NCBI GenBank assembly: GCA_947591505.1
Contig: CANQDM010000001.1
Span: forward strand, 25,316-89,315
Reading direction: 5' to 3'
Source: an uncultured Bacilli bacterium
GTDB taxonomy: Bacteria > Bacillota_I > Bacilli_A > RF39 > UBA660
DNA length: 64,000 bases
Shown: positions 18,749 through 55,531 of the stretch, in pieces
Position numbering within the stretch: position 1 is the first letter of the stretch
Layout of the letters: each line of letters starts with the position of its first letter
The notes under the pieces: generated by a model
Database searches by the model: none
Told to the model about the DNA's origin: nothing
The model's input: only the letters and a program-made list of their open reading frames with translations
Position numbers and translations under genes: made by a program

Positions 18749-18752
18749 ATAC

Positions 18753-27985: not shown

Positions 27986-29704
27986 TTATTGATTAATACT
28001 GGAAATACCAGCAATACTTTTTTGAACTTGTAATAAATCTAGGGCATTTATTTTTCCATCTCCTGATGTATCACCAGCTAAAGATTTTGCACCGCTCAAA
28101 GAATAAATGCCAGCAATATTCTTTTGTACTTGTAGTAAATCTAGAGCATTTATTTTTCCATCTCCTGATGTATCACCATGAATTATTACTGTTAAAGTTT
28201 CATTTGTTTCCGCATTTTTTACTGTTATTTTATAACCAGTCCCAATAATACCATCACTAACTGCATTACCATCGACATTTTTTATTGTTACTGAATTTGC
28301 TCCTGCTATACTTTCAATTGTGTTTTTTACATTTTTAATACTCGTATCAGCATTTATGCCAGAAATATATCCACTTGAATATTTATAACCACTACTAACT
28401 ATTATAGTACTTATAGCAAGTTTTGATGGATCAGTACTATCTGGAGTGGAAACAGCGCCACTATTAACTGTATAGTTTGAATTATCCATATTATTATATA
28501 TAGGAATATAGAAAACAAAACTATTAGACAATAATCCAAGTTTACTATATGAATTATAAGTTGATTTAGCTTCACTAGATGGGGCTTGAATATTAGTCAT
28601 ATATTGATGACTATATACATTTCCATTATTTGGAACTACATTATATTTTTGCAAATATCCAGAGTATTGACCAGCTTGAATATATGAAGAATAAATACTA
28701 TCAGCACCGCCTTTTAAAGCATTTTCTAATCCTTTCCAATTATGATTTTTAGCATAAGCTAATCCACATTCCGTTGGACTTTTGCCAGTAGCACATGTAT
28801 CACTAACACCATAATTATAAAAATTATAATAGTCTTCATAACCAGGATATACGCCACTATATAAATTATATTCGCTTGTCTTGGCTCCTAGTTCTTGTAA
28901 TACTCTGCTAGCAATAAAAACAGGGCTTACTTTAGATTTTTTACCAGCATTAACTAAAGCACCACCAAAATCATGATTCAATTCAACATGATATTTATAG
29001 AACGCTGCATGATCTATAACATCTATTGCAGCAGGTTTATAAGCATTTGTCAATTTATCGTTATAACTTAAATGTTCAAATTGAAAAATATATTTTTCAT
29101 TAAGCCAATTACGAGGATCCATATAATAAGCTACTGCAGTTGAAGAGGCTGGATACCAACTTTTAGAATATGGATTTTTACAAGATTTATCAATATTTGA
29201 AGGATCACTATTTTCAATATAACTTGTACCACATTCACTTTCTTTATTAACTGCAGTACTCCAATCAAGGCCAGTTAAAACAGCTTTAAAGTCCCAATTA
29301 GGGTATTTACTTTTAAGTTCACATAATCCTGGCCAATAAGTGGCAGGAAATCCAGCAATTGAAAATTCTTTTTCACAATTAGTAGTTGGATTTACATTAT
29401 ATACCAATTCTTTTTTTTCAACATATTTACTACAAACATAACCTGAAGCACTTGCCTCATAATAAATTTTATACCATCCACCACTGCAACCTTTTTCATC
29501 TTTATATAATTCATCACTAACCATATTATATTCAGCATTTTTTACTAAAGTTTTTACACTACTATAATTAGTTCCGGGACCTTGTCTTAAATAAACCCCT
29601 GAACCAGTTATTTTTGCGCGATAAGACATAGCATAACTAATATTTACATTAATCATAAACAAAATAGCAAATAAACAAATATACTTTAAATACTTCTTTT
29701 GCAT
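27986..29704 (-). CDS. secreted SH3b-domain cell-wall hydrolase-like protein (glucosaminidase-like core) with C-terminal tandem dockerin-type Ca-binding repeats
   Basis: Signal peptide, then an SH3b-like block (YRAKITGSGVYLRQGPGTNYSS...GWYKIYY). Central domain contains ASRVLQELGA. The C-terminus has two copies of GDTSGDGKINALDLLQVQK(N/S)IAGI, matching the dockerin D-x-x-x-D-G-x-I-N-x-x-D loop plus helix. Confidence 0.55.
   Translation of the reverse strand: MQKKYLKYICLFAILFMINVNISYAMSYRAKITGSGVYLRQGPGTNYSSVKTLVKNAEYNMVSDELYKDEKGCSGGWYKIYYEASASGYVCSKYVEKKELVYNVNPTTNCEKEFSIAGFPATYWPGLCELKSKYPNWDFKAVLTGLDWSTAVNKESECGTSYIENSDPSNIDKSCKNPYSKSWYPASSTAVAYYMDPRNWLNEKYIFQFEHLSYNDKLTNAYKPAAIDVIDHAAFYKYHVELNHDFGGALVNAGKKSKVSPVFIASRVLQELGAKTSEYNLYSGVYPGYEDYYNFYNYGVSDTCATGKSPTECGLAYAKNHNWKGLENALKGGADSIYSSYIQAGQYSGYLQKYNVVPNNGNVYSHQYMTNIQAPSSEAKSTYNSYSKLGLLSNSFVFYIPIYNNMDNSNYTVNSGAVSTPDSTDPSKLAISTIIVSSGYKYSSGYISGINADTSIKNVKNTIESIAGANSVTIKNVDGNAVSDGIIGTGYKITVKNAETNETLTVIIHGDTSGDGKINALDLLQVQKNIAGIYSLSGAKSLAGDTSGDGKINALDLLQVQKSIAGISSINQ
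28040..28200. repeat. near-identical tandem DNA duplication (~70-bp unit) encoding the two dockerin segments
   Basis: ...gtaataaatctagggcatttatttttccatctcctgatgtatcacca... recurs as ...gtagtaaatctagagcatttatttttccatctcctgatgtatcacca... Confidence 0.7.
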
Positions 29705-35592: not shown

Positions 35593-35683
35593 TTATTTAA
35601 TATAAAAGATTGGCTTAAATACTAGTCAATCTTTTATATTAATTTTATATAGTTTAATACAAAAATAGGAGTCTCAATTAAAC

Positions 35684-37873
35684 TTAATTCTTTTTTCTTA
35701 ATGTTCTTTTTAAAGTGTTTTTATTGACATAATTTTGAAGAGGTAAAGAAAGGGAACCTTCATAATTTATATATACTTCATGCATAGCCCTTGTAATAGC
35801 AACATAAAGTAATTTTAAATCAATATTAGATAGACCATATGTAACATCATTACCATTAGCAATAATTACTGCATCAAATTCTAATCCTTTGGCTAAGTAA
35901 GAAGGAACTATGCATAATCCTCCTTTATATTCTGTATTTTGTTCAGTAATTAAAGCAATATCTAAACCATATTTTTGCAATTTGGTATAAATATCTTTTC
36001 CTGATTTTAAATCTTTTGTAATAATAGCTATAGTAAGATAATCTTTATCTAATAAGTGTTTAATTTCCATAATTAAAGTAGGAATACTATTATTTTTGGT
36101 AATTTCATTTATTTTTATTTCTTCTTTACTTCGAGCAATACATAGAGCTTCCATATATCCTAATTCTTTTAAAACTTCATTAGCTAAATCCGAAATTTCC
36201 GTAGTAATTCTATAACTTTTATTAAGAACTAATAAATTAGCTTCTTGATTAAAGACTAAATCATTTAAAACTTTCCAATTCTTAATAGATGTATAATCAT
36301 AAATAGATTGATTAATATCTCCAAAAACATCAAAATAGGATTTAGGAAAAATCTTTTTTAACACATAATATTGGGCCAAACTTAAATCTTGACCTTCATC
36401 AATAACTAGGTGTTGGTAGTTTTTGAATTTACCACTACCATTTAATAAAAAACTAATTAAAGCCAAAGGGGCCAAATCATCATAACTTACTTTTTTACCA
36501 TTAAGATTGCTATTTATTTCCTCTTTTAATTCTTGATTATTTAAATTATTTATAAATTCTTCATATAAAGTTAATGGTTTTATTTTTAAAAAGGAAAAAT
36601 ATTCTTTTAAAGTATTAGGACAACCTTTTTTTATTTCTTGACTCATCCTATCATGATATGCCAATATTTCTTTTCTTCTTTCACTATCCTTTGGCAAAGA
36701 TAAATACTCATCTCGATAACGAAGCCATAAATCATGAATTAAATCATCAGCATTATCTTTTATTTCCTTTGTTAAATTTTTAATAAAGATGCTGACTTTT
36801 TCATTATAGCTTAAAGATGTATTTAAAAATTTATTATAAATTATTTGTAATTTTTCTTTATTTACTAAAGTTAATCCTTCATAAGTAATATCTTTTTGTA
36901 AATGATGAATGACATAATTTTCAATATAATTTTCAAGTAAATGTAAAAATTCTAAAGAGTTTTTATACTTAATAATATTTAAATCACTTTTATTATTTAA
37001 AACATTTTCTAAAGTTACATTTCTACTAGTAAACCGTACATTACCAATTAAACTAGTAGCAATTTCTTCAAAAGTATACTCACATACATTTTTTATATCT
37101 AAATCAGGTAATAAGTCCGCAATAAAATTTAAAAAATATTTATTAGGACCAATAATCATAAATTCTTCATCTTTAATATTCCGTTCATTATTATATAAAA
37201 GATACGCTATTCGATGTAAAGCAACCGTTGTTTTACCTGAACCTGCCACTCCTTCAATAATATTATGTTCCATTAATGGTCTTCTAATAATTTGGTTTTG
37301 CTCTTTTTGAATAGTGGCAATAATGCTTTTTAATCTAGCATCTAAATTTTCTTCTAAATATTCAACTAAAATATTATCATCAGATAAAACATCTTCTTCT
37401 GCCACTTTTTTTAATATGCCATCTTTAATAATAATTTGTCTTTTACTTAAAATATCGCCCTTATATTTTTGATTGTTAAAATCATATTCGCATGGTCCAA
37501 TACTATAATCGTAATATAAAGAACATATAGGGCTACGCCAATCATAACAAATGCTTTCATTATCCGAAGAAGTAATAGATTTTTTACCAATATAAATTAA
37601 ATTAAATTCACCTGTATCTTTACTTTTAAATTCAAAACGGCCAAAATAAGGATTATTTAAAACACTTTTAAGTCTACTTACTTCAGTAGCATACATACTC
37701 ATTAAAGCTTGTCTATTAAATTGGGTTCCTCTTTGTCCCTCTTTAAAACCAATTTTAAAATTCTCTTGCTTTTTAAAATTTTCTTCTGCTATAGTAATTT
37801 TTTCTTGAATTAAAGAAATAACTTCTTTTAATTTTTTTTCTTCATATGCAAATATATCTTCATTCATAACCAT
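35684..37873 (-). CDS. helD: HelD-type (helicase IV-like) UvrD-family ATPase
   Basis: 729 aa. Walker A GVAGSGKTTVALHRIAYLLY; UvrD-like C-terminus. Confidence 0.75.
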   Translation of the reverse strand: MVMNEDIFAYEEKKLKEVISLIQEKITIAEENFKKQENFKIGFKEGQRGTQFNRQALMSMYATEVSRLKSVLNNPYFGRFEFKSKDTGEFNLIYIGKKSITSSDNESICYDWRSPICSLYYDYSIGPCEYDFNNQKYKGDILSKRQIIIKDGILKKVAEEDVLSDDNILVEYLEENLDARLKSIIATIQKEQNQIIRRPLMEHNIIEGVAGSGKTTVALHRIAYLLYNNERNIKDEEFMIIGPNKYFLNFIADLLPDLDIKNVCEYTFEEIATSLIGNVRFTSRNVTLENVLNNKSDLNIIKYKNSLEFLHLLENYIENYVIHHLQKDITYEGLTLVNKEKLQIIYNKFLNTSLSYNEKVSIFIKNLTKEIKDNADDLIHDLWLRYRDEYLSLPKDSERRKEILAYHDRMSQEIKKGCPNTLKEYFSFLKIKPLTLYEEFINNLNNQELKEEINSNLNGKKVSYDDLAPLALISFLLNGSGKFKNYQHLVIDEGQDLSLAQYYVLKKIFPKSYFDVFGDINQSIYDYTSIKNWKVLNDLVFNQEANLLVLNKSYRITTEISDLANEVLKELGYMEALCIARSKEEIKINEITKNNSIPTLIMEIKHLLDKDYLTIAIITKDLKSGKDIYTKLQKYGLDIALITEQNTEYKGGLCIVPSYLAKGLEFDAVIIANGNDVTYGLSNIDLKLLYVAITRAMHEVYINYEGSLSLPLQNYVNKNTLKRTLRKKN

Positions 37874-37886: not shown

Positions 37887-38504
37887 TTAATCTAGATATT
37901 TATTTATTTCTTCTAAATCTTCAATTGTTTCGATATCTTCTTCTTTTTTAGTAGTAAACAATAAAGAATGCCAACCATATAATCTTGGTTTTACATAATC
38001 ACTATTTAAATTATCCCCAATATGAATAAATTCAGCACTTTTACAGTTTAATTTCTTTTCAATTACGCGATAACTTTCCTCATCACTTTTTGTATAGCCC
38101 ATTTCATAAGAATAAAAAATATCATCGACAACATCTTTTAAACAATCAATACTTGTTTTTTGTAAATTACTCGTGTTAGAAAATAAAATTACTTTATATC
38201 CTCTTTTTTTAAAGTCTTTAATAACTTCTATATCATGAGAACTAACTTTTTCTTTGGAATCACAATATTTATTTTTAATAAACTCTACTATATCATTATT
38301 AGAAGTGATATCTAAATTAACACAAAATTTATTAACTAATTCTTCTAAAGAACCTTTTTGTTTTTGAAAAACATCTTTAAAACTTTTTCGAACTAAATCA
38401 AGATCTTTATTTACTAATTTGGCTAATTCTTTAATACTATGATCTTTATCATAATTACCTTTAAGTAAAGTTCCCCCTATATCAAGAGATATTACCTTTA
38501 TCAT
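37887..38504 (-). CDS. HAD-superfamily hydrolase
   Basis: Motif I LDIGGTL, motif II SNTSN, motif IV GDNLNSD. Confidence 0.7.
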   Translation of the reverse strand: MIKVISLDIGGTLLKGNYDKDHSIKELAKLVNKDLDLVRKSFKDVFQKQKGSLEELVNKFCVNLDITSNNDIVEFIKNKYCDSKEKVSSHDIEVIKDFKKRGYKVILFSNTSNLQKTSIDCLKDVVDDIFYSYEMGYTKSDEESYRVIEKKLNCKSAEFIHIGDNLNSDYVKPRLYGWHSLLFTTKKEEDIETIEDLEEINKYLD

Positions 38505-39021
38505 ATTCTTCCCATCCCTTTTTAATTACTTCGGTAATAAAATCATTTTTACCTTTAGTATATTTAGGTCTTTCGTCTTTATATAATTTAGCTAATTCTT
38601 TTTTTAAATCGGCATATTTTTGAATATATTCAGGATGTTCAATTAAATATTTTTTAAAGATTATTTGATCATAATATGTTTTACTACCTTTTTCTGTAAA
38701 ATGTAGATAATGAGTTCTTGCATCTTCTGGTCCTTTAGCAAAGAACATCCGATCTTCAACTCCTTGAGGGCCTCTATTTTCATAATCGTAATTTTTTAAA
38801 ATATCCTCTATTTTGGGAATATCTTTTAAACTTTTAATAACCACTAAAATATCAATAACTGGTTTAGCACATAAACCTTTAATAGATGTACTACCTACAT
38901 GATGAATTTCCAAAATGTAATCTTTCAAAACTTCTTTTAATAATTTTTCTTCTTGTTCATATTCTTGAGCCCAATTATCATCAAATGGAACTAATTCCAC
39001 AATTCCTCTTTTTAACGCCAT
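38482..39021 (-). CDS. GrpB family protein (nucleotidyltransferase-fold)
   Basis: HHVGSTSI...PVIDILV and overall ~180-aa GrpB pattern. Confidence 0.65.
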   Translation of the reverse strand: MALKRGIVELVPFDDNWAQEYEQEEKLLKEVLKDYILEIHHVGSTSIKGLCAKPVIDILVVIKSLKDIPKIEDILKNYDYENRGPQGVEDRMFFAKGPEDARTHYLHFTEKGSKTYYDQIIFKKYLIEHPEYIQKYADLKKELAKLYKDERPKYTKGKNDFITEVIKKGWEEYDKGNIS

Positions 39022-39066
39022 AAATAACCCTTCTTTCTAAAAAAATTATAACATGTTCCTCTTAAT

Positions 39067-39900
39067 TTAACAATTATTATGTCTTTCACCTATTTTTAAC
39101 TTTAATTTTTTATAAATTTCTCTATCATCTTCTAAACCAATTTTATCAGTCCTTGGATCGTGAAAATCTGATCCCTTAGTAATTAATAAATTATTTTTTA
39201 AACAAAAGAGAGCTAAATCATTAGAATAAGCTAAATTCATTTTTAAGTTCTCTACTTCAACTCCCATTAATCCTAAATCTTTCAAATCTAAAATTGTACT
39301 TTTTAAATCTTGAATAGATAAATTTAAAATATTGGGATGAGCAAGAATGCTTACACCTTTATACCGATTAATAAGTCTTATAACTTCTTGCGGTTTAATT
39401 TTTTTATTAGGAACATAATATTTTTGTCCTAGGCCAATTAAATTTTGATAAGCACTTAAAACATCCGAAACATAATGTTTATAAATCAAATATTTTACTA
39501 ATTTTCTTTTATCTAATATATTATAATTAAAATTATTTTCCGCTAAATATTTGATAACTTTATATTCACTGATATCATAACCATCATTTTGTAATAAATT
39601 AATAACTTTTAAGGTCACTAATTCATTTTGAAATTTAATCCTTTTTAAAAAATAATTTAATTCTTGAGGATTCAAAATACCATATCCTAAAATATGCATA
39701 TTGGTAACTGTTGTATTAAATTCAATACCATTAATTATCTCTATATCGCTATTATTTTCTTGAATTTCTGAAGAAGCAAAGTCATGATCTGTTATGGCAA
39801 TTGCAGAACAATTATTTTGTAAAGCCAATGATATCACTTCTTTATTAGATAAAGAACCATCAGAATTATTCGTATGTAAATGTAAATCAATTTTTCCCAT
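39067..39900 (-). CDS. PHP-domain phosphoesterase
   Basis: IDLHLHTNNSDGSLS N-terminus, with HD/His clusters downstream. Confidence 0.8.
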   Translation of the reverse strand: MGKIDLHLHTNNSDGSLSNKEVISLALQNNCSAIAITDHDFASSEIQENNSDIEIINGIEFNTTVTNMHILGYGILNPQELNYFLKRIKFQNELVTLKVINLLQNDGYDISEYKVIKYLAENNFNYNILDKRKLVKYLIYKHYVSDVLSAYQNLIGLGQKYYVPNKKIKPQEVIRLINRYKGVSILAHPNILNLSIQDLKSTILDLKDLGLMGVEVENLKMNLAYSNDLALFCLKNNLLITKGSDFHDPRTDKIGLEDDREIYKKLKLKIGERHNNC

Positions 39901-39918
39901 ATTTCCCCCTTTAGACTT

Positions 39919-41016
39919 CTATTCAATAATTTTCTTAAAGTCTTCTGAATCTATTTTAAAAAATTGACAATCTTCATAAAATTTTAAAGTACTATCATGA
40001 CTATCAGAGCCAATCGTTTTTAATAATTTTTTTTGCTCTAATAGATGATAAAAATTACTACGATCATTATAAGGACTACGAATATTTAATTCTAATCCTC
40101 TAATATGAGGATTTTCGGTAATTAATTTAGATACAACTGCTAATTTGTTTTCTGAAGGATGAGCAAAATAAGTAGGATAATATTTATTTAACTCATTAAT
40201 TTTTAGCTGCCCATAAGAATTAACTGATAAACTACCGCACTTTGGCATAGGCCACCAATCATCATCAACTTCTCTTACAGCTAACATTGAAAGTAAAAAT
40301 CTAACTTTGTATTGATTTTCAGGAATATCTAAATATTTTTCTCTTAATTCTTGATAACGCTTAGCTTTATATAATTTTCGATCCTCATAAATATCTATAG
40401 CATTATATTTTTCTAATAATTTTAAAATTTTAAAATTAGTAATCTTTTGCGGTTCAAATTTGGAAATAAGATAAGAACATATCGTATCATATTCTGGAAA
40501 CAAAGAAAATTCTTGTAAATATTTTAAATATTCTTCATAAGATATTTTTAAATTATTATTTTTTAAAACTTCTTGAATAGCTAAATTAGCTTCTAATCTT
40601 TGAAATTGAATTTTACTTCTATTAAATGAAGCATCATAATTGGTTTTAATATCTTTTTTTATTCTTTCATCTGCTGGATTAACAAATAATTGTAAGATAT
40701 GACATTGATTCCCGTATTCTCTATTATCAATCGTAAATTCTACCCCAGGAATTATTAAAGGATCAGTAAAATCTTTTTTTAATATTCCTTTTAATTCTTC
40801 ATAAGAATCTAGGGAATCATGATCTGTTATACTAATAACATCAAAGCCTTTTTTCTTAGTGGTTTTTAATATTTCTTTTATACTTTGCTTGCCATCGGCA
40901 CTATAATTAGAATGAATATGTAAATCAATTTGAAGTTCTTTCTTAGTTAAAGTAAGCTCTTTTAATTTTATTTTTAAATTTTTTAAATAAACATCCCAAA
41001 ATTCATAATCACTCAT
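39919..41016 (-). CDS. PHP-domain phosphoesterase (larger paralogue)
   Basis: IDLHIHSNYSADGKQS; ...ISITDHD.... Confidence 0.8.
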   Translation of the reverse strand: MSDYEFWDVYLKNLKIKLKELTLTKKELQIDLHIHSNYSADGKQSIKEILKTTKKKGFDVISITDHDSLDSYEELKGILKKDFTDPLIIPGVEFTIDNREYGNQCHILQLFVNPADERIKKDIKTNYDASFNRSKIQFQRLEANLAIQEVLKNNNLKISYEEYLKYLQEFSLFPEYDTICSYLISKFEPQKITNFKILKLLEKYNAIDIYEDRKLYKAKRYQELREKYLDIPENQYKVRFLLSMLAVREVDDDWWPMPKCGSLSVNSYGQLKINELNKYYPTYFAHPSENKLAVVSKLITENPHIRGLELNIRSPYNDRSNFYHLLEQKKLLKTIGSDSHDSTLKFYEDCQFFKIDSEDFKKIIE

Positions 41017-42970
41017 TTTTTACTCTCCTTAACTTTAGACCTTTTTTATCCTCTATCTTTAAATTACATAAATCTATTATATCATTTAAACTTTGTCCAT
41101 TCACTAGAAAATTTTCATTCTTACCATGAAGAGATAAATTATCATGATAACCTAAAACAGTTACATCACTTAATCGCTCTTTTAATAAGGCAGAAATAAC
41201 TAAAGGATAACCCATAAACAAATAAATTATGGGAATATTTTCGGGGAAAAAATAAGCAAATTCTTCATCATCTAATGCTTTTCTACTTGTCTTATCTAAT
41301 ATTTTCGGTTCAGAGACATAAACTACTTTTAAATTATATTCTTTTTCTAAATATTCATAAGCCGACATGCCTAAATCTAACATATAATCACCAGTAGCTA
41401 CTAATATTAAATCAGGATTAGCATTATCTTTGACAGTAGCAATTTTTGCATCTTTAAGAGAAGGATAAGTTTTTTGATGCCTTTTAGAAGATATAAATAT
41501 ATTAACAATATCTTTTTTATTTTTTTCTTTTTCGATATCTAATATCAGACTTTCTTCATCAGCTGGATAAAAAATATTATAAAAATTATCATCTCTTAAT
41601 AAAAAATCATTAACAAAAGAAGGATTTTGATGTGAATAAGTATTTTCTAAATAAGTAGAAGTTAATAAATAATTCATACTAGGAATTTCTTTAGGTGTTT
41701 TAAAAAATAATTTTTGTCTTAAATATTTATCATATTGCATAAGCATACTACTAATAAGAGGCATAAAACCTTCATAAGCAATATACATGCCAAAATTACC
41801 AGCCATAGTATAGCCAAAATATAAAGCTTGTAAAACGTTTTCTGACAAAAGTTCAATAGTATATTTTGATAAAGATCCTAATTGATTAGAAAATATTTCA
41901 TCAGGTGAAAAAATTATGCCATTGTTATTTTGCATTAAATTGGTTAAATATTCCGGCAATTTCGTTTTTTCTTTTAAAATATTATTCTTTACTTCTTTGG
42001 GATTTAAAATAGGACTGGCAGTAGCAAATAAGGAAAACTCTTTACATAATTTATCATTTTGATCAAATATTTCTCCCTCATAATGAGACCATAACTTTTT
42101 TATAGCTTCTCTTTTTAAATTTTCTTCTAAGTTTTTAAAAGGATCTTTATGAACATTAATATTACCTTCTAAAGGTTTACCGAAAACACTAGGTAAAGTA
42201 AAACCTTTTGATGATTTAAAAATTATTAGTGGTGCATCTTCTTTTAAAGTGCTTTCTAAACTATTTTGAAAATCTTTAACATTTTCTAAAAGATTAGGAT
42301 TATCAATGGCATCAACAAAATGAACTTGATAACCAAAAGTTTGAAAATAATTAATTAATTCTGAGTCATTTAATCGACTTAAAAATGATGCCGACCCCAT
42401 TTTTAAACCATTTAAATTAATAATTGGTAAAACTTTAGCTGTAGTTTTAATTAATTTATTAAGTTGCCAAGAAGCACTAAGAGTTCCCGTTTCAGCTTCA
42501 CCATCACCAATAATACAAGGAACTATTTGAACCTCTTTATTATTTAAAGCATAGCCATAAGAAGTAGCAAGGGAATAACCAAGTTCTCCGCCATCATAAA
42601 TAGTTTCTGGATAACCTGGATTTATTTCTGAACGCACTAATCCACCAAAAGATGCAATTAAATTATTTAGTCCTTTTCTATCTAAAGAATAATTAGAATC
42701 ATATCTATTAAGTGTATTATTAAGCCATAAATTAGTAATCAAAGAAAGACCTGCATGGCCAGGACCTATGACTATTTGATTTTTTAAATTTTGATGATTT
42801 AAAAAATAATAAAGATTAGCTAAAATAAAATTCATAGACATACAAGTACCTAAATGACCAGATGCATAATTTTTTAAAGTAAAATCTCCATATTTAGATA
42901 AATACATTAAACTAATAGCCACTTTATTAGAAGCATAAAAATATTTTTTAATTATTTCTTCTTTTATCAT
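41009..42970 (-). CDS. phosphoketolase-family TPP enzyme, short form (653 aa)
   Basis: Blocks GHLGTCMSMNFILANLYYF, VIGPGHAGLSL, DGGELGYSL, GDGEAETG and LPIINLNGLKM align with conserved Xfp phosphoketolase motifs. Confidence 0.75.
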   Translation of the reverse strand: MIKEEIIKKYFYASNKVAISLMYLSKYGDFTLKNYASGHLGTCMSMNFILANLYYFLNHQNLKNQIVIGPGHAGLSLITNLWLNNTLNRYDSNYSLDRKGLNNLIASFGGLVRSEINPGYPETIYDGGELGYSLATSYGYALNNKEVQIVPCIIGDGEAETGTLSASWQLNKLIKTTAKVLPIINLNGLKMGSASFLSRLNDSELINYFQTFGYQVHFVDAIDNPNLLENVKDFQNSLESTLKEDAPLIIFKSSKGFTLPSVFGKPLEGNINVHKDPFKNLEENLKREAIKKLWSHYEGEIFDQNDKLCKEFSLFATASPILNPKEVKNNILKEKTKLPEYLTNLMQNNNGIIFSPDEIFSNQLGSLSKYTIELLSENVLQALYFGYTMAGNFGMYIAYEGFMPLISSMLMQYDKYLRQKLFFKTPKEIPSMNYLLTSTYLENTYSHQNPSFVNDFLLRDDNFYNIFYPADEESLILDIEKEKNKKDIVNIFISSKRHQKTYPSLKDAKIATVKDNANPDLILVATGDYMLDLGMSAYEYLEKEYNLKVVYVSEPKILDKTSRKALDDEEFAYFFPENIPIIYLFMGYPLVISALLKERLSDVTVLGYHDNLSLHGKNENFLVNGQSLNDIIDLCNLKIEDKKGLKLRRVKNE

Positions 42971-42971
42971 T

Positions 42972-44024
42972 TTAAATCTTTCTAACCTTTTTATCAGCTA
43001 CATATAAACTTCGAAAATTTTCCCAATCTTTAGGTCTTAAATTAGAACTCTCAAAAATAGCATTTAACATTGCTTTTGCTTTTAAATAATACTCAATATC
43101 TTTAGCTTCCTTAACACGATAGGCTTCTTGTTCTAAAGTATAATCTTGAAATACTTGAACAATCGGAAATTTATTAATACTATCTTTAAAATAATTAAAG
43201 TATTTAGCTACAACTTCTAAATTTTCCAAACCTAATATATATAAAAAGGTAGCGGTAACATTTAAAGATTTAGCATATTCTAATAAACATTTCGCTTTTT
43301 CTAAAGTGAGTTTTGCTTTCTCTGGACGCATAAATTTTTCTCTTTCTAAAAATTTTTCAATGGTTAAAAAAAGGCCAAAATTAGGAATGTTTTGCGTTAA
43401 ATCCTTAATTTTAGCATAAGTGGTTAATTGCGAACCAATATAATTTAAATTACCAGTAAATCCCATTTCTTGAAAAGACTCATTAAGCATTAACAAATGA
43501 TTTATTAATTCATCTTCGTTAAGGAAACAACCAGTACAAATCGTAATATCTTTAATTTTTCCTAAAGAGGCAATATTATTTTCTTTTAAAAGATTTTCAA
43601 AATATTCTTGAACATTATCTTTTTTTTGAAAATCATAATTATCATCTTCAGTTAAACTATAAGTACCACAAAATTTACAACCGGCACATTTGCTACGAGA
43701 ATTAGAATTAAAAGTTATTGCTTGATAGTTATTGCGAAAATAAGTTGATGTACATGTATCTTTTTCAATATTTTGAACTTGACCTACTAATGTGTCTTCT
43801 AAATATAAATTATCATTTTCTAAAGTAAAAGGTGAGTTAGGATAAGTATTTACACAAACTGCAAAATAATAGGTTTGCGATGAATTTAACATTTTTAAAT
43901 TAAATCTAATTCGGTTATCTGAAGTCTTAGCATATTTAATTCCATATCTATTTAAAGCAATAGCTAAAACATTTTCTAAAGATACATCGTATTTTAAAGC
44001 TAAACTTTGATAATATTCCAACAT
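42972..44024 (-). CDS. hypothetical protein with CxxCxxC cysteine cluster (possible Fe-S protein)
   Basis: 350 aa; SRSKCAGCKFCG plus ICTGC further on. Confidence 0.35.
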   Translation of the reverse strand: MLEYYQSLALKYDVSLENVLAIALNRYGIKYAKTSDNRIRFNLKMLNSSQTYYFAVCVNTYPNSPFTLENDNLYLEDTLVGQVQNIEKDTCTSTYFRNNYQAITFNSNSRSKCAGCKFCGTYSLTEDDNYDFQKKDNVQEYFENLLKENNIASLGKIKDITICTGCFLNEDELINHLLMLNESFQEMGFTGNLNYIGSQLTTYAKIKDLTQNIPNFGLFLTIEKFLEREKFMRPEKAKLTLEKAKCLLEYAKSLNVTATFLYILGLENLEVVAKYFNYFKDSINKFPIVQVFQDYTLEQEAYRVKEAKDIEYYLKAKAMLNAIFESSNLRPKDWENFRSLYVADKKVRKI

Positions 44025-44103
44025 TTTCTCACACTATCTTTCTCAAATAAAATATAGCAAGAAAAAGATTAATTGTACAATATATTATTTTAATAACCCC
44101 TAT

Positions 44104-44979
44104 TTATATTATTAATAACGATTTTAATATTTCAATAAATTTTTTAATAGTTTTATTGATATTTTTAGAGTTATAAATAATTGTAATATTATCGGTAGGT
44201 AAATTTTCAAATTTATTAAGAATAATAATTTCCCTATTCTCTATTTCTGAAGCCACAAATTTTTGGTTAATATAGCCAATTCCTATTCCTTTTAAGATTA
44301 ATTTTTTTAATAAAAGCGAATTAGGAAGTTCCATTACGATATTATGCTTAACATTTTTACTAATTAAATAGTCATCAATTATTCTTCTTTTTTCGGATTT
44401 ATTAGGTAAAATTAACGGATAAGTATATGTTTCATCTTGAAAGCTATCTTTATTTTTTAAATAAAATTCTTGGGAACAAGCTAAAACATTTTTAACTTCT
44501 ACAATTTTTTCGACAATTATTTGTTTGTCAAATTTATAAAATAAAGGATAACGACAAATTATTATATCCAACTCTCCTTTTTTTAATTTTTGAAAAAGTT
44601 CCGTATCCGCTGAAAAGTCTAACTTTAAATTTATATTGGGATATATACTTTTAAATTTATAAATTACTTCTTCTAAATAATTATCGGCAATAAAACGTAG
44701 ACAACCAATATTTATTTCTTCTTTTTCCATTTCACCCGTTAAAATATAAATGATATCTTTTAATTTTAAATATAATTCTTGTCCTTTATTAGTAAGTTTA
44801 ATCTCATTATTTAATCTAATAAATAATGGAGTATCTAATTCATTTTCTAATTTTTGAACACTTATACTTAAAGCCGATTGGGAAATTTTAACATGTTCAC
44901 TTGCTTTGGTAAAGCTTTCATATTTAGCCACATAGTAAAAATTGCGATATAAATTTAAATTAATATTAAAATTATCCAT
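44104..44979 (-). CDS. LysR-family transcriptional regulator
   Basis: N-terminal HTH (FTKASEHVKISQSALSISVQKLENEL) and a LysR substrate-binding-domain-sized C-terminus. Confidence 0.85.
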   Translation of the reverse strand: MDNFNINLNLYRNFYYVAKYESFTKASEHVKISQSALSISVQKLENELDTPLFIRLNNEIKLTNKGQELYLKLKDIIYILTGEMEKEEINIGCLRFIADNYLEEVIYKFKSIYPNINLKLDFSADTELFQKLKKGELDIIICRYPLFYKFDKQIIVEKIVEVKNVLACSQEFYLKNKDSFQDETYTYPLILPNKSEKRRIIDDYLISKNVKHNIVMELPNSLLLKKLILKGIGIGYINQKFVASEIENREIIILNKFENLPTDNITIIYNSKNINKTIKKFIEILKSLLII

Positions 44980-52851: not shown

Positions 52852-55518
52852 TTATTTACTTCTAATGCATCCTTTGGATTGAAATATAAGTTCTCCTTCT
52901 ACTCTTTTATTAACATTATTTATTTGGTCATAATCACGATAATTTCTAAATATTAATGATATATCCCAACGGTGTTCAGACATAGTATTTGTAGATGCAT
53001 CATTAGAAATTGTAACTTCACCAATTTTATAATCTTTTCCTTTAATATTTACTAAATCAATATTATAAGGTTGTAAATTATTCGTATCACTACTACCTTC
53101 TAATCTTAATATAAGTTGTTCATTTAAATCATATAATTTACCATTCTTAGTATATTTATTTGTAAAGGTATTCTTTTGAGTTTTAAAGATAATATCATAG
53201 GTACATGTTGTAATATCCTCATAAGATTTCAAATAAACAGTCGAATATGCTTTATCACTTGAAATTTCTATATAATTAGCCATACTTGCTGAAGGTTTAT
53301 GCATTTGCTCAGCAGTAACAGATAAGTTAATATCTTTAGGCTCCATTATTGTAAATAATGCATTTGGTTCATCATCTTCATCATCACAATATTTATCGCA
53401 TATACCATCACCATTAGTATCACAGTACTTATCACATTTATCGTCATCATTATTATCACAGTTTAAATCGCACTTACCATCTTTATTGGTATCACAGTTT
53501 AAATCACATTTGCCATCTTTATTGGTGTCACAATTTAAATCACATTTGTCATCTTTATTGGTATCACAGTTTAAGTCACATTTTCCATCTTTATCGGTAT
53601 CACAGTTTAAGTCACATTTACCATCTTTGTCATTATCACAATTGTAATCGCATTTGCCATCTTTATTGGTATCGCAATTTAAATCACATTTGCCATCTTT
53701 ATTGGTGTCACAATTTAAATCACATTTGCCATCTTTATCATTATCACAATTATAATCACATACATGGTCTTTATTTATATCACAATTGTAATCACATCGG
53801 CCATCTTTATCATTATCACAGTTGTAATCACATTTATCATCACCATCGGTATCACAATTCCAATCGCATTTACTGTCCTTATCGGTATCACAATTATAAT
53901 CGCATTTTCCATCTTTATTAGAATCACAATTTAAATCGCATTTTCCATCCCTATTGGTATCACAGTTTAAATCGCATTTTCCATCACCATCGGTATCACA
54001 ATTAATTGGACAAGTAAATTCACAATAGGTGTCACATTTTCCATCACCATCATCATCACAGAACAAATCACAAACTTTATCATTATTCGTGTCACAATTT
54101 AAATCACATTTACCATCTTTATCGGTATCACAATTTAAATCACATTTATTATCGCCATTTGTATCAATATTTAAATCAGGATCTTTATCACCATCGACAT
54201 CTATATTAATGTCAGGGTATCCATCTTTATCAATATCACAATTTAAGTCGCATTTTCCATCACCATCGGTATCTTGATTCATTGGATTTCGATCAGGATT
54301 ACCATCCGTTTCAGCCTCTACATCTGGTTTTTTATCACGGTTAGTATCAATTTCAATATTCTCTTCAACATGAGTATCACAATTGACATCACATTTACCA
54401 TCTTTATCAATATCAAGGTTAGTATCTGGTACACCATTACCATCGGTATCAATATTTAAATCAGGTTTCATATTATCATTAGTATCAATATTAACATCTG
54501 GTTTACCATCACCATTAATATCAACATTAACATCTGGATAGCCATCTTTATTAACATCACAGTTTAAATCGCATTTTCCATCGTTATCTAAATCTTGATT
54601 AGTTGAATTTTGATTTGGCTTACCATCAGTTTCAGCTTCAATATCTGGATCTTTATCTCGATCAGTATCAACCCACATATTTTTTTCAACATGAGTATCA
54701 CAATTGATATCGCATTTTCCATCTTTATCAAAATCTATATTAGTATCTGGTACACCATTACCATCAGTATCAATATTTATATCTGGTTTCTTGTTATCGT
54801 TAGTATCAATATTAACATCTGGTTTACCATCACCATCTATATCGATATTATAATCTGGATAATGGTCATCATTAATATCACAGTTTAAATCGCATTTACC
54901 ATCGTTATCTAAATCTTGATTAAGTAAATTTCGATCTGGATGATTATCAGTTTCGGCATCCACATCAGGATCTTTATCGCCATCAGTATCAATTGGTGTT
55001 TTTTTATCAACATCATCATCAATATTTATATCGGGTTCATTATCACCATTTATATCGATATTGACGTCTGGTTTACCATCGCCATCGGTATCAATGTTTA
55101 AATCTGGCATTTCATTATCATTTGCATCAATATTTATATCTGGTTTACCATCACCATCTAAATCAATATTATAATCTGGATGATTATCACCATCAACATC
55201 ACAATTTAAATCACACTTACCATCGCCATCTAAATCTTGATTAATAAAGTTTTTATCTGGTTTACCATCGTTATCTACATCAATATTAAAAAATGCTTTA
55301 TTTTTAATATTACCATAAGTAATATTAATGTCTGGTAAACCATCACCATCGGTATCACGATTTAACAAAACATTACCGCTACCACCAAAATTACTACCGC
55401 CAAAAAATTCAAGAGTAAAAGTAGTAATAATTAAAATCAAACACAAAATCATTATAATCATCATTATAACTAGTGCCATTAATTTTTTCTTCTTTAATTC
55501 ATCATCTTGAACAAACAT
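52852..55518 (-). CDS. 888-aa secreted/anchored Asp-rich calcium-binding repeat protein: thrombospondin type-3-like repeats, then ~25 Cys-containing 12-residue repeats (CDxNCDxxKDGK), then a unique ~200-aa C-terminal domain
   Basis: Start reassigned to the ATG at 55518 (RBS AGGGGG 9 nt upstream). The ORF-track start at 55596 would overlap the upstream gene. N-terminal TM LMALVIMMIIMILCLILIITTF. First half repeats DxDGDGKPDxNID. Second half is near-perfect CDLNCDTNKDGK units. Confidence 0.8.
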   Translation of the reverse strand: MFVQDDELKKKKLMALVIMMIIMILCLILIITTFTLEFFGGSNFGGSGNVLLNRDTDGDGLPDINITYGNIKNKAFFNIDVDNDGKPDKNFINQDLDGDGKCDLNCDVDGDNHPDYNIDLDGDGKPDINIDANDNEMPDLNIDTDGDGKPDVNIDINGDNEPDINIDDDVDKKTPIDTDGDKDPDVDAETDNHPDRNLLNQDLDNDGKCDLNCDINDDHYPDYNIDIDGDGKPDVNIDTNDNKKPDINIDTDGNGVPDTNIDFDKDGKCDINCDTHVEKNMWVDTDRDKDPDIEAETDGKPNQNSTNQDLDNDGKCDLNCDVNKDGYPDVNVDINGDGKPDVNIDTNDNMKPDLNIDTDGNGVPDTNLDIDKDGKCDVNCDTHVEENIEIDTNRDKKPDVEAETDGNPDRNPMNQDTDGDGKCDLNCDIDKDGYPDINIDVDGDKDPDLNIDTNGDNKCDLNCDTDKDGKCDLNCDTNNDKVCDLFCDDDGDGKCDTYCEFTCPINCDTDGDGKCDLNCDTNRDGKCDLNCDSNKDGKCDYNCDTDKDSKCDWNCDTDGDDKCDYNCDNDKDGRCDYNCDINKDHVCDYNCDNDKDGKCDLNCDTNKDGKCDLNCDTNKDGKCDYNCDNDKDGKCDLNCDTDKDGKCDLNCDTNKDDKCDLNCDTNKDGKCDLNCDTNKDGKCDLNCDNNDDDKCDKYCDTNGDGICDKYCDDEDDEPNALFTIMEPKDINLSVTAEQMHKPSASMANYIEISSDKAYSTVYLKSYEDITTCTYDIIFKTQKNTFTNKYTKNGKLYDLNEQLILRLEGSSDTNNLQPYNIDLVNIKGKDYKIGEVTISNDASTNTMSEHRWDISLIFRNYRDYDQINNVNKRVEGELIFQSKGCIRSK
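53390..54100. repeat. tandem 36-bp coding repeat array (near-identical units, e.g. gtcacaatttaaatcacatttgccatctttattggt), part of a larger degenerate repeat region extending to ~55300
   Basis: Many consecutive 36-bp units with 0-4 mismatches are visible directly in the sequence between ~53440 and ~53800. Confidence 0.8.
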
Positions 55519-55531
55519 AAAACACTGCCCC

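What the first reader, a model, noticed from the sequence alone, without database searches (positions are those of the whole stretch)
37887..44979. LysR-headed operon: short phosphoketolase homologue + CxxCxxC protein + two PHP phosphoesterases + GrpB + HAD phosphatase
A 653-aa protein retains the TPP-binding signature blocks of Xfp phosphoketolases but is ~140 aa shorter than canonical enzymes. It is translationally coupled (overlapping starts) to a PHP-domain phosphoesterase, followed by a second PHP protein, GrpB and a HAD hydrolase. Just upstream are a 350-aa Cys-cluster protein and a same-strand LysR regulator. I do not know this gene set as a known pathway. It may be a regulated catabolic or salvage route for a phosphorylated sugar or related compound.
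Basis: inference. Interest (0 to 1): 0.55.

Follow-up and report, generated by a model that had tools for sequence, protein, structure and literature searches.

The report
Unknown radical-SAM plus phosphoketolase-like operon
A seven-gene operon that pairs an unusual iron-sulfur (radical-SAM-like) enzyme with a re-tooled phosphoketolase and nucleotide-type phosphoesterases is real and conserved from gut Bacilli to a Clostridium perfringens toxin plasmid, and I found no description of its pathway.

Summary
All seven ORFs lie on the minus strand at the stated coordinates and are tightly packed or overlapping.

- **"Short phosphoketolase" (PK*).** It is a genuine family, not a mis-called start. 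It keeps every ThDP and phosphoketolase catalytic residue. It always carries H142E, Q321K and a deletion of Q546-H548 (B. longum numbering).
- **"CxxCxxC protein" (rSAM*).** It is a small orphan family with a radical-SAM-like fold and a deviant CX2CX2C motif.
- **PHP proteins.** Both belong to the TrpH/YciV (pAp-phosphatase/RNase AM) branch.
- **HAD.** It lacks the Asp+2 general acid, so "phosphatase" is uncertain.

rSAM* and PK* co-occur in 28 of 40 species-level loci. GrpB::rSAM* fusions exist, and one PK*::PHP fusion was seen.

The same core sits in biosynthesis-like clusters that carry exporters and tailoring enzymes:
- the "putative metabolic genes" of C. perfringens plasmid pCPF5603;
- a Salmonella island;
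- Actinobacteria plasmids.

In CPR bacteria and archaea, a phosphonopyruvate-decarboxylase-like ThDP enzyme replaces PK*.

Best reading: an undescribed radical/ThDP pathway acting on a nucleotide-linked or phosphorylated precursor. It is more likely biosynthetic than sugar catabolism. Substrate and product remain unknown.

The parts
44104..44979 (-). LysR-type transcriptional regulator (291 aa), same strand, upstream of the enzyme genes
   Evidence: Pfam HTH_1 (57 bits) + LysR_substrate (85 bits). No NCBIfam equivalog cut-off is reached. A LysR gene is adjacent in 20 of 40 species-level loci. It is on the same strand in most Bacilli loci and divergent in Clostridia.
44025..44103 (-). 79-nt spacer between LysR and the first enzyme gene; candidate promoter/operator of the enzyme genes (inferred)
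   Evidence: Sequence read. The promoter scan is uninformative in this AT-rich DNA: 87 sites found against 85 expected.
42972..44024 (-). rSAM*: radical-SAM-fold Fe-S protein (350 aa). N-terminal domain of about 105 aa (two helices followed by beta-strands) plus a partial TIM barrel. CX2CX2C at C113/C116/C119.
   Evidence: AF2 pLDDT 86.7. Foldseek best hits are LipA, AprD4, MqnE, HydG and viperin (E 1e-5 to 1e-3, TM about 0.45-0.55). Pfam Radical_SAM scores only 17 bits against a cut-off of 29.5. There is no NCBIfam hit and no significant PDB sequence hit. Only 319 clusters among 1.84 billion representatives match. C113/C116/C119 are kept in 81 of 83 diverse members.
41009..42970 (-). PK*: phosphoketolase-family ThDP enzyme (653 aa) with a remodelled substrate pocket (E115, K275, deletion after residue 442)
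   Evidence: XFP_N, XFP and XFP_C all hit. NCBIfam phosphoketolase scores 377 bits against a cut-off of 777. PDB phosphoketolases match at E 6e-70 to 2e-50.
39919..41016 (-). PHPa: PHP-family metal phosphoesterase (365 aa) with a large helical insertion and a DDDWW motif; start overlaps the PK* stop
   Evidence: Invariant H33, H35, D41, H66, E93, H106, H286, D338 and H340. AF2 pLDDT 93.6. Foldseek best hits are RNase AM 9etk (E 1.2e-11), BAD_1165 and Cv1693 2yb1. It is fused to PK* in P0015 at 57% identity over its full length.
39067..39900 (-). PHPb: TrpH/YciV-type PHP phosphoesterase (277 aa)
   Evidence: PDB sequence hits are 9etk, 2yb1 (pAp phosphatase Cv1693) and 7ug9 (RNase AM), at E about 1e-15. 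NCBIfam RNase RNM scores 106 bits and 3',5'-nucleoside bisphosphate phosphatase 99 bits, both far below their cut-offs. PHP motifs are at residues 5, 36, 58, 68, 186 and 243.
38482..39021 (-). GrpB-family protein (179 aa; nucleotidyltransferase fold by prior knowledge)
   Evidence: Pfam GrpB 161.7 bits. PDB 2nrk at E 4e-29. It is fused N-terminally to rSAM* in P0251 and P0264 (Pfam). P0262 has the same length and layout. P0264 is 38% identical to the window GrpB.
37887..38504 (-). HAD-fold hydrolase (205 aa) with motif I D8-I-G-G-T, lacking the Asp+2 general acid/base
   Evidence: Pfam Hydrolase 47 bits. The best NCBIfam hit is DREG-2-like at 54.7 bits against a cut-off of 155. Motif I D-x-G-[GNK]-[TV] is found in 27 of 27 cassette HADs from all lineages.

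Best explanation
The seven genes form one LysR-headed operon for a self-contained small-molecule pathway that has not been described.

Its invariant core is:
- a divergent radical-SAM-fold [4Fe-4S] enzyme (rSAM*, CX2CX2C motif);
- an immediately following specialised phosphoketolase paralogue (PK*);
- an atypical HAD hydrolase.

In this lineage the core is joined by a GrpB nucleotidyltransferase-fold protein and two TrpH/YciV-type PHP nucleotide phosphoesterases.

Proposed working (inferred):
1. A nucleotide, or a nucleotidylated or phosphorylated sugar-like precursor, is bound or made by GrpB.
2. rSAM* uses its site-differentiated cluster, probably with SAM, for a radical step that creates an alpha-hydroxy-keto (or alpha-keto) function.
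3. PK* adds ThDP to that carbonyl and cleaves the adjacent C-C bond. It then eliminates the beta substituent and releases an acyl phosphate by phosphorolysis.
4. PHPa, PHPb and the HAD remove nucleotide or phosphate groups, or handle the acyl phosphate.

The route is more likely biosynthetic, or a conversion of an internal metabolite, than catabolism of an imported sugar.

Shown here: operon conservation, gene fusions, retained and changed active-site residues, folds, and genomic contexts.
Inferred: reaction order, SAM use, substrate class and product.
For: 1. Unit of selection.
- rSAM* is found in 40 species-level loci, and 28 of them carry PK* within the fetched DNA.
- Fifteen loci carry all six enzyme genes, with unrelated flanks and two different gene orders.

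2. Fusions.
- GrpB::rSAM* occurs in separate 50%-identity clusters (P0251 and P0264 by Pfam, P0262 by layout).
- PK*::PHPa occurs once.
- A DAC-like domain is fused to a methyltransferase in Saccharibacteria.

3. PK* active site.
- Kept in 120/120 members and in distant Salmonella, C. perfringens, Streptomyces and Nocardia forms: H64, H97, G155, H320, E437, S440, E479, Y501, N549, H553, K605 and the GDG..N motif.
- Changed in all of them: H142E, Q321K and deletion of Q546-H548. R442 is variable. The residue list comes from PMC10547157.
- So phosphoketolase-type chemistry is kept and specificity is altered.

4. rSAM*.
- Radical-SAM-like fold.
- Only three universally conserved Cys, which fits a cluster with one open iron.
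- Many conserved Arg, Lys and Asn residues.

5. Nucleotide theme.
- Both PHPs fall in the pAp-phosphatase/RNase AM branch.
- Other variants carry GrpB, a DAC-like protein (7/7 sub-threshold hits to one profile region), GGDEF-like and NTP_transf_2-like proteins, NTP_transf_5, a dTMP-kinase-like protein, and nucleoside hydrolase plus pyrF.

6. Biosynthetic contexts.
- pCPF5603-type plasmids: ABC exporters, BtrH-N, adenylation enzymes, ACP and a methyltransferase.
- Salmonella island: methyltransferase and MFS transporter.
- Sellimonas: DegT, GT1 and ACP-FkbH.
- L027 and L031: ABC exporters, GT1, APH.

7. No transporter is conserved next to the window-type operon.

8. In CPR bacteria and archaea, rSAM* is followed by a phosphonopyruvate/sulfopyruvate-decarboxylase-like ThDP enzyme, a methyltransferase and usually a HAD. 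The rSAM*-then-ThDP-enzyme logic is therefore older than PK* itself.
Against: - No substrate, product or activity is known for any component.
- rSAM* lacks the canonical CX3CX2C motif and fails the Pfam cut-off. SAM binding was not tested, and the cluster loop is modelled at low confidence (pLDDT <50 for residues 111-115).
- The window-type operon has no exporter or tailoring enzyme, so its end use may differ from that of the plasmid clusters.
- A LysR activator and an acetyl-phosphate-yielding enzyme would also suit catabolism.
- The PK*::PHPa fusion rests on a single contig. Because the two ORFs overlap, it could be a frameshift artefact.
- The DAC-like, GGDEF-like and NTP_transf_2-like assignments are all sub-threshold.
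- The HAD lacks Asp+2, so its role as a phosphatase is doubtful.
Confidence: 0.4

Rival explanations
1. This is the first reader's view: a LysR-induced catabolic or salvage route. A phosphorylated sugar or nucleotide-derived ketose, possibly an endogenous by-product such as a 5'-deoxyadenosine-derived sugar, is trimmed by the phosphoesterases. PK* then splits it into acetyl phosphate (for ATP) and an aldehyde.
For: - PK* keeps the complete phosphorolysis machinery, so an acyl phosphate is the likely product.
- LysR regulators commonly activate catabolic operons (established knowledge).
- The window-type operon has no exporter or tailoring genes.
- Salvage of an internal metabolite needs no transporter.
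Against: - No uptake system, kinase, isomerase or dehydrogenase of the kind typical of sugar catabolism is conserved with it.
- A dedicated radical-SAM-fold enzyme and a GrpB fused to it are unusual for such routes.
- The same core lies inside clusters with adenylation/ACP enzymes, glycosyl- and methyltransferases and exporters.
- A canonical PK coexists with PK* in one MAG.
Confidence: 0.25
2. The pathway is the same, but the Cys protein is not a SAM-cleaving radical enzyme. It would be a radical-SAM-fold Fe-S protein that uses its open iron as a Lewis acid or for redox. Examples are a dehydratase or reductive dehydroxylase in the manner of aconitase, NadA, IspG or IspH.
For: - The motif is CX2CX2C, not CX3CX2C.
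- Pfam Radical_SAM is below its cut-off.
- A profile search does not merge the family with the bulk of radical SAM proteins.
- Profile comparison with two canonical radical SAM proteins was not significant.
- C166 in the T-G-C-F segment is conserved in 62 of 83 members and could be a fourth ligand.
Against: - The best structural neighbours are all SAM-cleaving enzymes.
- The Phe between the second and third Cys (C-x-F-C) matches the usual aromatic position of radical SAM motifs (established knowledge).
- Only three Cys are universal.
- Deviant spacings are known in genuine radical SAM enzymes, for example ThiC and HmdB (own knowledge).
Confidence: 0.2
3. This is an anti-phage or other conflict system that makes a modified nucleotide (viperin-like), with the phosphoesterases processing the product.
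For: - Viperins are among the structural neighbours of rSAM*.
- The distribution is patchy and prone to horizontal transfer, including a Salmonella island flanked by IS elements and an integrase, and conjugative plasmids.
- In L001 the neighbours include Abi_2 and nSTAND3-like genes.
- A UvrD/GajB-like helicase lies 13 nt downstream in the window.
Against: - None of the seven proteins hits PADLOC.
- No relative was found in IMG/VR viral contigs.
- The LysR control, ThDP enzyme, ACP/adenylation enzymes, glycosyltransferases and exporters fit metabolism better.
- The helicase and Abi neighbours are not conserved across loci.
Confidence: 0.05
4. The finding is an artefact: an ordinary Xfp with a mis-called start, next to unrelated genes by chance.
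For: None found.
Against: - The upstream gene ends 1 nt before the PK* ATG.
- More than 120 homologues share the length.
- The active-site signature is invariant.
- The gene set is conserved across phyla, and fusions exist.
Confidence: 0.01

Closest known systems
Xfp phosphoketolase (Bifidobacterium longum/breve; PDB 3AI7, 3AHC)
   Same: Three-domain XFP architecture, ThDP motif, Glu479, and the His64/His97/His320/His553/Tyr501/Asn549/Lys605 catalytic set. PK* therefore probably works like a phosphoketolase: ThDP adduct, C-C cleavage, beta-elimination and phosphorolysis to an acyl phosphate.
   Different: - H142E, Q321K, deletion of Q546-H548, and a variable R442.
- 26-36% identity at most to canonical or distant forms.
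- NCBIfam score is half the cut-off or less.
- It is always next to rSAM*.
- It coexists with a canonical PK in L012.
Radical SAM enzymes with a partial TIM barrel (LipA 5EXJ, viperin 6Q2P, MqnE 6XIG, AprD4 6FD2, HydG 4WCX)
   Same: Predicted fold of residues about 105-345. Three-Cys motif on the first loop with an aromatic residue before the last Cys.
   Different: CX2CX2C spacing, an extra N-terminal domain of about 105 aa (two helices followed by beta-strands), a T-G-C-F segment where GGE is expected, and no significant sequence match to Pfam, NCBIfam or PDB.
TrpH/YciV PHP phosphoesterases (Cv1693 3',5'-adenosine bisphosphate phosphatase 2YB1; RNase AM 9ETK/7UG9)
   Same: Metal-ligand set and fold for both PHPa and PHPb.
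   Different: Both score far below the equivalog cut-offs. PHPa has a much larger helical insertion and a family-specific DDDWW motif.
"Cluster of putative metabolic genes" of Clostridium perfringens enterotoxin plasmid pCPF5603 (NC_007773.1)
   Same: It contains rSAM*, PK* and PHPa in the same order, plus the same atypical HAD. The literature describes it only as putative metabolic genes (PMC4810218).
   Different: About 36-39% identity. It is embedded among ABC exporter, BtrH-N, adenylate-forming, ACP, A-domain and methyltransferase genes. It has no GrpB, PHPb or LysR.
Fosfomycin pathway logic: Fom1 cytidylyltransferase domain, Fom2 phosphonopyruvate decarboxylase, Fom3 radical SAM, FomD diesterase (own knowledge, a lead only)
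   Same: The combination of a nucleotidyl-handle enzyme, a radical SAM enzyme, a ThDP enzyme and a phosphoesterase. Archaeal and CPR variants carry a Ppd-like enzyme next to rSAM*.
   Different: No PEP mutase was found among the flanking ORFs that were scanned. rSAM* is not a B12-type radical SAM enzyme. PK* replaces Ppd in the window.

Membership tests
Xfp phosphoketolase (EC 4.1.2.9/4.1.2.22) | XFP_N/XFP/XFP_C architecture with the ThDP-binding GDG..N motif and Glu479 | tested here: met
   Pfam hits to all three domains. D156, N187 and E377 are invariant.
Xfp phosphoketolase (EC 4.1.2.9/4.1.2.22) | Catalytic residues His64, His97, His320, His553, Tyr501, Asn549 and Lys605 | tested here: met
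   H39, H72, H274, H447, Y399, N443 and K496 are invariant in 120/120 members and in distant forms.
Xfp phosphoketolase (EC 4.1.2.9/4.1.2.22) | Substrate-pocket residues His142, Gln321, Gln546 and His548 | tested here: not met
   E115, K275 and a deletion, in every member examined. The residue list is from PMC10547157.
Xfp phosphoketolase (EC 4.1.2.9/4.1.2.22) | Score above the curated NCBIfam phosphoketolase cut-offs | tested here: not met
   The best score is 377 bits against a cut-off of 777.
Xfp phosphoketolase (EC 4.1.2.9/4.1.2.22) | X5P/F6P + Pi -> acetyl phosphate activity | not testable with these tools
   Needs an enzyme assay.
Radical SAM superfamily | CX3CX2C cluster motif | tested here: not met
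   The motif is C113-x2-C116-x2-C119, conserved in 81/83 members.
Radical SAM superfamily | Partial/full (beta-alpha) TIM-barrel core fold | tested here: met
   AF2 model with pLDDT 86.7. Foldseek probability is 1.00 to LipA, MqnE, viperin, HydG and AprD4, but TM is only 0.38-0.55.
Radical SAM superfamily | Pfam PF04055 gathering score | tested here: not met
   17 bits against 29.5 for the window protein. Relatives score 20-24 bits.
Radical SAM superfamily | [4Fe-4S]-dependent reductive cleavage of SAM | not testable with these tools
   Needs anaerobic biochemistry.
PHP phosphoesterases, TrpH/YciV branch | His/Asp/Glu ligands of the trinuclear metal site | tested here: met
   PHPa invariants are H33, H35, D41, H66, E93, H106, H286, D338 and H340. 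PHPb motifs are present.
PHP phosphoesterases, TrpH/YciV branch | Equivalog-level match to RNase RNM or to 3',5'-nucleoside bisphosphate phosphatase | tested here: not met
   PHPb scores 106 and 99 bits against cut-offs of 375 and 400. PHPa scores 46 and 42 bits.
GrpB (PF04229) | Pfam gathering score over the full domain | tested here: met
   161.7 bits against 25.5, covering profile positions 2-159 of 159. PDB 2nrk at E 4e-29.
HAD phosphatases | Motif I DxDx(T/V) with the Asp+2 general acid/base | tested here: not met
   The motif is D8-I-G10-G-T, and Gly occupies Asp+2 in 27/27 cassette HADs. The nucleophile Asp, motif II (FSNTS) and motif IV (GDNLNSD) are present.
Known anti-phage defence systems (PADLOC) | Match of any component to a defence-system model | tested here: not met
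   No hits for the seven proteins. Only the non-conserved downstream helicase matches GajB models.

The most novel reading that the evidence does not exclude
The cassette encodes a previously unknown radical-SAM/ThDP pathway. In it, a phosphoketolase-family enzyme acts on a nucleotide-derived or otherwise non-sugar-phosphate ketone made by an orphan CX2CX2C radical enzyme. It releases a non-standard acyl phosphate, or the matching aldehyde in lineages with the Ppd-like enzyme, as an activated building block. The product would be a new small molecule made by gut Bacilli and Clostridia, by CPR and DPANN organisms, and by the C. perfringens enterotoxin plasmid pCPF5603.
Probability: 0.3. Interest if true: 0.8.

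Novelty: new variant of a known kind. Interest (0 to 1): 0.62.

Why it matters
- It defines two enzyme families with no assigned chemistry. One is an orphan radical-SAM-fold family with a deviant cluster motif. The other is a phosphoketolase subfamily with a fixed E/K/deletion signature. The two are genetically locked together across Firmicutes, Actinobacteria, Proteobacteria, CPR bacteria and archaea.
- Phosphoketolases are known almost only as central-carbon enzymes. A biosynthetic or nucleotide-linked role would widen what the family does.
- The link to pCPF5603 gives a testable handle on the plasmid's "putative metabolic genes".
- The operon's presence in many uncultured gut Bacilli and in episymbiotic CPR/DPANN lineages suggests an unrecognised metabolite in those communities.

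Tried and rejected
- **Exact-sequence look-up of PK*.** Not on record.
- **Mis-called start or a missing domain.** Rejected.
- **Defence system.** No PADLOC hits, and no relatives in IMG/VR.
- **E. coli genomes.** No match to the Salmonella-island version.
- **Phosphonate pathway (PEP mutase + Ppd).** Ppd-like enzymes flank rSAM* in archaea and CPR bacteria. No PEP mutase turned up among the flanking ORFs I scanned. The HAD is not a PhnX match. I kept this only as an analogy.
- **PDB 9CD3, the best hit for PK*.** It is an ordinary phosphoketolase used in a synthetic pathway, so it says nothing about PK*.
- **FliB and CX2CX2C literature.** Unrelated.
- **Profile comparison of rSAM* with two canonical radical SAM proteins.** Not significant (probability <1%). 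The local alignment does place CX2CX2C on CX3CX2C with a one-residue gap.
- **Promoter scan.** No better than shuffled sequence.
- **Literature searches.** Searches for phosphoketolase + radical SAM + PHP/GrpB/nucleoside found nothing relevant. The original pCPF5603 paper is not held.
- **Specific chemical schemes.** I considered 5'-deoxyadenosyl addition to PEP, a 3'-keto nucleotide, sulfo-sugar cleavage and inositol phosphate degradation. None could be tested, and none is claimed.

Full report
**1. What is in the window**

The window is uniformly AT-rich, about 24% GC. Between 37887 and 44979, seven minus-strand ORFs are packed head to tail:

| Gene | Coordinates | Length |
|---|---|---|
| LysR | 44104-44979 | 291 aa |
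| Cys-rich protein (rSAM*) | 42972-44024 | 350 aa |
| Phosphoketolase homologue (PK*) | 41009-42970 | 653 aa |
| PHP protein (PHPa) | 39919-41016 | 365 aa |
| PHP protein (PHPb) | 39067-39900 | 277 aa |
| GrpB | 38482-39021 | 179 aa |
| HAD hydrolase | 37887-38504 | 205 aa |

- The rSAM* stop is 1 nt from the PK* ATG.
- The PK* stop overlaps the PHPa ATG by 8 nt, behind an AAGGAG site.
- GrpB and HAD overlap by 23 nt.
- A 79-nt spacer separates LysR from rSAM*.
- Promoter scanning is no better than shuffled sequence in this DNA. The only terminator-like hairpin, at 35597-35642, lies beyond the next gene.
- The flanking genes are TyrRS and a UvrD/HelD-like helicase. Neither is conserved with the set elsewhere.

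**2. The gene set is a conserved unit**

- PK* has more than 120 homologues of 620-692 aa at 44-60% identity. Nearly all come from uncultured Bacilli.
- Four contigs carrying such homologues show the same seven genes in the same order with unrelated flanks.
- A scan of one genome per GTDB species with the rSAM* profile found 40 loci.
- By tblastn, 28 of the 40 carry PK* within the fetched DNA. Fifteen carry all six enzyme genes. Most of the rest are short contigs, or are archaeal or CPR loci.
- In four Clostridia loci the same genes are split into two divergent transcription units around the LysR gene.
- Fusions tie the parts together. GrpB::rSAM* occurs in separate 50%-identity clusters (P0251 and P0264 by Pfam; P0262 has the same layout).
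- PK*::PHPa occurs once, as P0015. It comes from a single contig and could be a frameshift across the overlapping ORFs.

**3. The phosphoketolase homologue**

No N-terminal extension is possible. I aligned PK* to a canonical 775-aa phosphoketolase. That enzyme lies 5 kb from a PK* gene in one Bacilli MAG, which shows the two are paralogues. The length deficit is spread over nine or so loop, linker and C-tail deletions. No whole domain is missing.

I used the published active-site list for the Bifidobacterium enzyme (PMC10547157) and the HMMER alignments to PDB chains.

- Kept in all 120 short homologues: H64, H97, G155, H320, E437, S440, E479, Y501, N549, H553, K605 and the GDG..N ThDP motif.
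- Changed in all of them: E for H142, K for Q321, and loss of Q546-H548. R442 varies.
- The same signature holds in 667-746-aa relatives from Sellimonas, Salmonella, C. perfringens, Streptomyces and Nocardia, at 26-36% identity.

The defining trait is therefore the pocket signature, not the length. It argues for retained phosphoketolase chemistry on a different substrate.

By analogy with transketolase (own knowledge, a lead only), H142 sits near the donor C1 substituent, and the H548 region sits near the distal phosphate.

**4. The Cys protein**

- It has no NCBIfam match and no significant PDB sequence match. Its Pfam Radical_SAM hit is sub-threshold.
- A profile search of 1.84 billion representatives found only 319 relatives, so the family is small and isolated.
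- An AlphaFold model (pLDDT 86.7) shows an N-terminal domain of about 105 residues, two helices followed by beta-strands, and a (beta-alpha) barrel-like domain.
- The best Foldseek hits are all radical SAM enzymes: LipA, AprD4, MqnE, HydG, viperin and BioB. TM-scores are modest.
- Across 83 diverse members, only C113, C116 and C119 are universal (81/83). C166 is kept in 62/83, C91 in 41/83 and C163 in 21/83.
- Three universal cysteines fit a cluster with one open iron, as radical SAM chemistry requires.
- However, the spacing is CX2CX2C rather than CX3CX2C, and SAM binding is untested.
- Comparison with two canonical radical SAM proteins was not significant. The local alignment does place the motifs on each other with a one-residue gap.

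**5. The accessory enzymes point to nucleotides**

- PHPb matches Cv1693 (pAp phosphatase) and RNase AM at E about 1e-15.
- PHPa keeps all PHP metal ligands. It models at pLDDT 93.6 and is closest to the same branch, with RNase AM at E 1.2e-11. It has an enlarged helical insertion.
- GrpB is a clear family member. I found no assigned activity for it.
- The HAD has D-x-G-[GNK]-[TV] as motif I in 27 of 27 cassette copies from every lineage. It therefore lacks the Asp+2 general acid of ordinary phosphatases.
- That arrangement is known from dehalogenases, phosphonatase and P-type ATPases (own knowledge). The "phosphatase" label is uncertain.

**6. Relatives in other contexts**

| Context | Genes found with rSAM* and the ThDP enzyme |
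|---|---|
| Sellimonas, other Clostridia | PK*, HAD, a GT1 glycosyltransferase, and variously ABC exporters, an APH-like kinase, NTP_transf_5, methyltransferase, DegT aminotransferase, ACP-FkbH, a dTMP-kinase-like protein |
| Salmonella enterica assembly contig (GCA_007336665.1; I did not check that the contig is Salmonella DNA), island flanked by IS elements and an integrase | Methyltransferase, PK*, HAD, rSAM*, GrpB, MFS transporter |
| Thirty C. perfringens cpe+cpb2 conjugative plasmids of about 75 kb, including pCPF5603 (NC_007773.1) | rSAM*-PK*-PHPa in the window's order, the same atypical HAD, ABC exporter, BtrH-N, adenylate-forming, ACP, A-domain and methyltransferase genes |
| Streptomyces and Nocardia plasmids | Enolase-superfamily enzymes, methyltransferases, nucleoside hydrolase, a pyrF copy, a GGDEF-like protein, two canonical radical SAM proteins |
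| Saccharibacteria, Methanosarcinales, Woesearchaeota | A phosphonopyruvate/sulfopyruvate-decarboxylase-like ThDP enzyme (262-282 bits, cut-off 312) in place of PK*, plus methyltransferases and usually the HAD |

- In the Clostridia and Salmonella variants, rSAM* is preceded by a protein of about 155 aa. In all seven members tested, its only consistent Pfam hit is the DAC (diadenylate cyclase) domain. The hits are sub-threshold but fall on the same profile region.
- The pCPF5603 cluster is what reviews call the plasmid family's "cluster of putative metabolic genes" (PMC4810218).
- In two Saccharibacteria loci the DAC-like domain is fused to a methyltransferase.
- Related loci from Falkowbacteria, Nanoarchaeota and Parvarchaeota look similar in ORF layout, but I did not scan their proteins.
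- No PEP mutase turned up among the flanking ORFs that were scanned in the CPR and archaeal loci.

The ancient core is therefore rSAM*, then a ThDP enzyme, plus the atypical HAD. Lineage-specific small nucleotidyl-transfer-fold proteins (GrpB, DAC-like, GGDEF-like, NTP_transf_2-like) and phosphohydrolases (PHP, HD, metallophosphatase) join it.

**7. How it most likely works**

Shown:
- the operon is a unit;
- PK* keeps phosphoketolase catalytic residues with a changed pocket;
- rSAM* has a radical-SAM-like fold with three conserved cysteines;
- both PHPs are of the nucleotide-phosphoesterase type;
- related cassettes sit in clusters with exporters and tailoring enzymes.

Inferred:
- A nucleotide or nucleotidylated/phosphorylated precursor is handled by GrpB.
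- rSAM* performs a radical step that creates an alpha-hydroxy-keto or alpha-keto group.
- PK* cleaves it through ThDP and releases an acyl phosphate. The Ppd-like variants would release an aldehyde.
- PHPa, PHPb and the HAD remove nucleotide or phosphate groups, or handle the acyl phosphate.

The window-type operon never has a transporter, whereas relatives carry exporters, ACP/adenylation enzymes and glycosyl- or methyltransferases. I therefore rate biosynthesis, or conversion of an internal metabolite, above catabolism of an imported sugar. Confidence in this general scheme is about 0.4. The substrate and product are unknown.

Rivals:
- catabolic or salvage route: 0.25;
- same pathway with a non-radical Fe-S enzyme: 0.2;
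- defence system: 0.05, given no PADLOC hits and no viral relatives;
- artefact: 0.01.

**8. Comparison with known systems and novelty**

- PK* works like, but fails the membership test for, Xfp. Its pocket residues differ and it scores below the curated cut-offs.
- rSAM* has the radical SAM fold but fails the motif and Pfam criteria.
- PHPa and PHPb are PHP enzymes of the TrpH/YciV branch but are not equivalogs of the characterised members.
- The nearest pathway logic I know is fosfomycin biosynthesis: a nucleotidyl handle, a radical SAM enzyme, a ThDP decarboxylase and a diesterase (own knowledge). The enzymes here are different, and no PEP mutase was seen.
- Six full-text searches found no description of this gene set.

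I rate it a new variant of a known kind: a metabolic or biosynthetic operon built from known superfamilies, with two uncharacterised subfamilies and an unknown product. Interest is 0.62.

Noticed in passing
window 35684-37873 (-) and 35597-35642: A 729-aa UvrD/HelD-like helicase starts 13 nt after the HAD stop. It has GajB-like PADLOC hits. The only terminator-like hairpin in the region follows it, so it may be co-transcribed with the operon here. It is not conserved next to the operon in other loci.
   Followed up: partly
window 27986-29704 (-): A 572-aa protein with an SH3_3 domain and a C-terminal type I dockerin domain. This is unexpected in a very low-GC Bacilli-like genome.
   Followed up: no
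window about 2700-20200 (-): A surface-polysaccharide or teichoic-acid-type locus. It has two Polysacc_synt flippases, an O-antigen-ligase-like protein, a GtrA/DUF6020 protein, an LtaS-like sulfatase-family protein and a flavin amine-oxidoreductase-like protein. The organism is therefore walled, and no ORF suggests an alternative genetic code.
   Followed up: no
window 52852-55596 (-): A 914-aa ORF with no Pfam hit at E <= 1e-5.
   Followed up: no
L012 1924-4251: A canonical 775-aa phosphoketolase lies about 5 kb upstream of the PK* operon in the same Bacilli MAG. The two are therefore paralogues with separate roles.
   Followed up: yes
L049 (NZ_CP075954.1 46529-71572); NC_007773.1 (pCPF5603): The uncharacterised "putative metabolic gene cluster" of C. 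perfringens cpe/cpb2 plasmids contains rSAM*-PK*-PHPa-methyltransferase. It also holds a HAD, adenylation enzymes, ACPs, a BtrH-N protein and an ABC exporter. It looks like a small-molecule biosynthetic cluster on a toxin plasmid.
   Followed up: partly
L046/L047 5755-13167 (Salmonella enterica GCA_007336665.1): An island flanked by IS elements and an integrase carries methyltransferase, PK*, HAD, DAC-like protein, rSAM*, GrpB and an MFS transporter. It has no counterpart in 5,426 complete E. coli genomes.
   Followed up: partly
L029 7509-7967; L027 7465-7938; L031 7490-7981; L033 7457-7936; L046 9541-10011; L035 10115-10600; L036 2613-3728; L038 2289-2738: A family of about 155-aa proteins sits directly upstream of rSAM* in non-Bacilli variants. 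It has conserved motifs LHDGFH and HGVRxHS. It appears to be a divergent diadenylate-cyclase-like (DAC) domain, and in Saccharibacteria it is fused to a SAM methyltransferase.
   Followed up: partly
window 37887-38504 and 26 homologues in the loci: The cassette's HAD always has Gly at the Asp+2 position of motif I (D-x-G-G/N-T). It may not be an ordinary phosphomonoesterase.
   Followed up: partly
L004 1-5257: Upstream of one PK* operon lies a separate cluster. It holds a radical SAM protein, a CoaE::radical-SAM fusion, DUF3419, an ATP-grasp-like protein and a methyltransferase.
   Followed up: no
L039 2503-6578: Three consecutive Ser/Thr protein-kinase-domain genes lie upstream of the rSAM*/Ppd-like pair in a Methanosarcinales MAG.
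   Followed up: no
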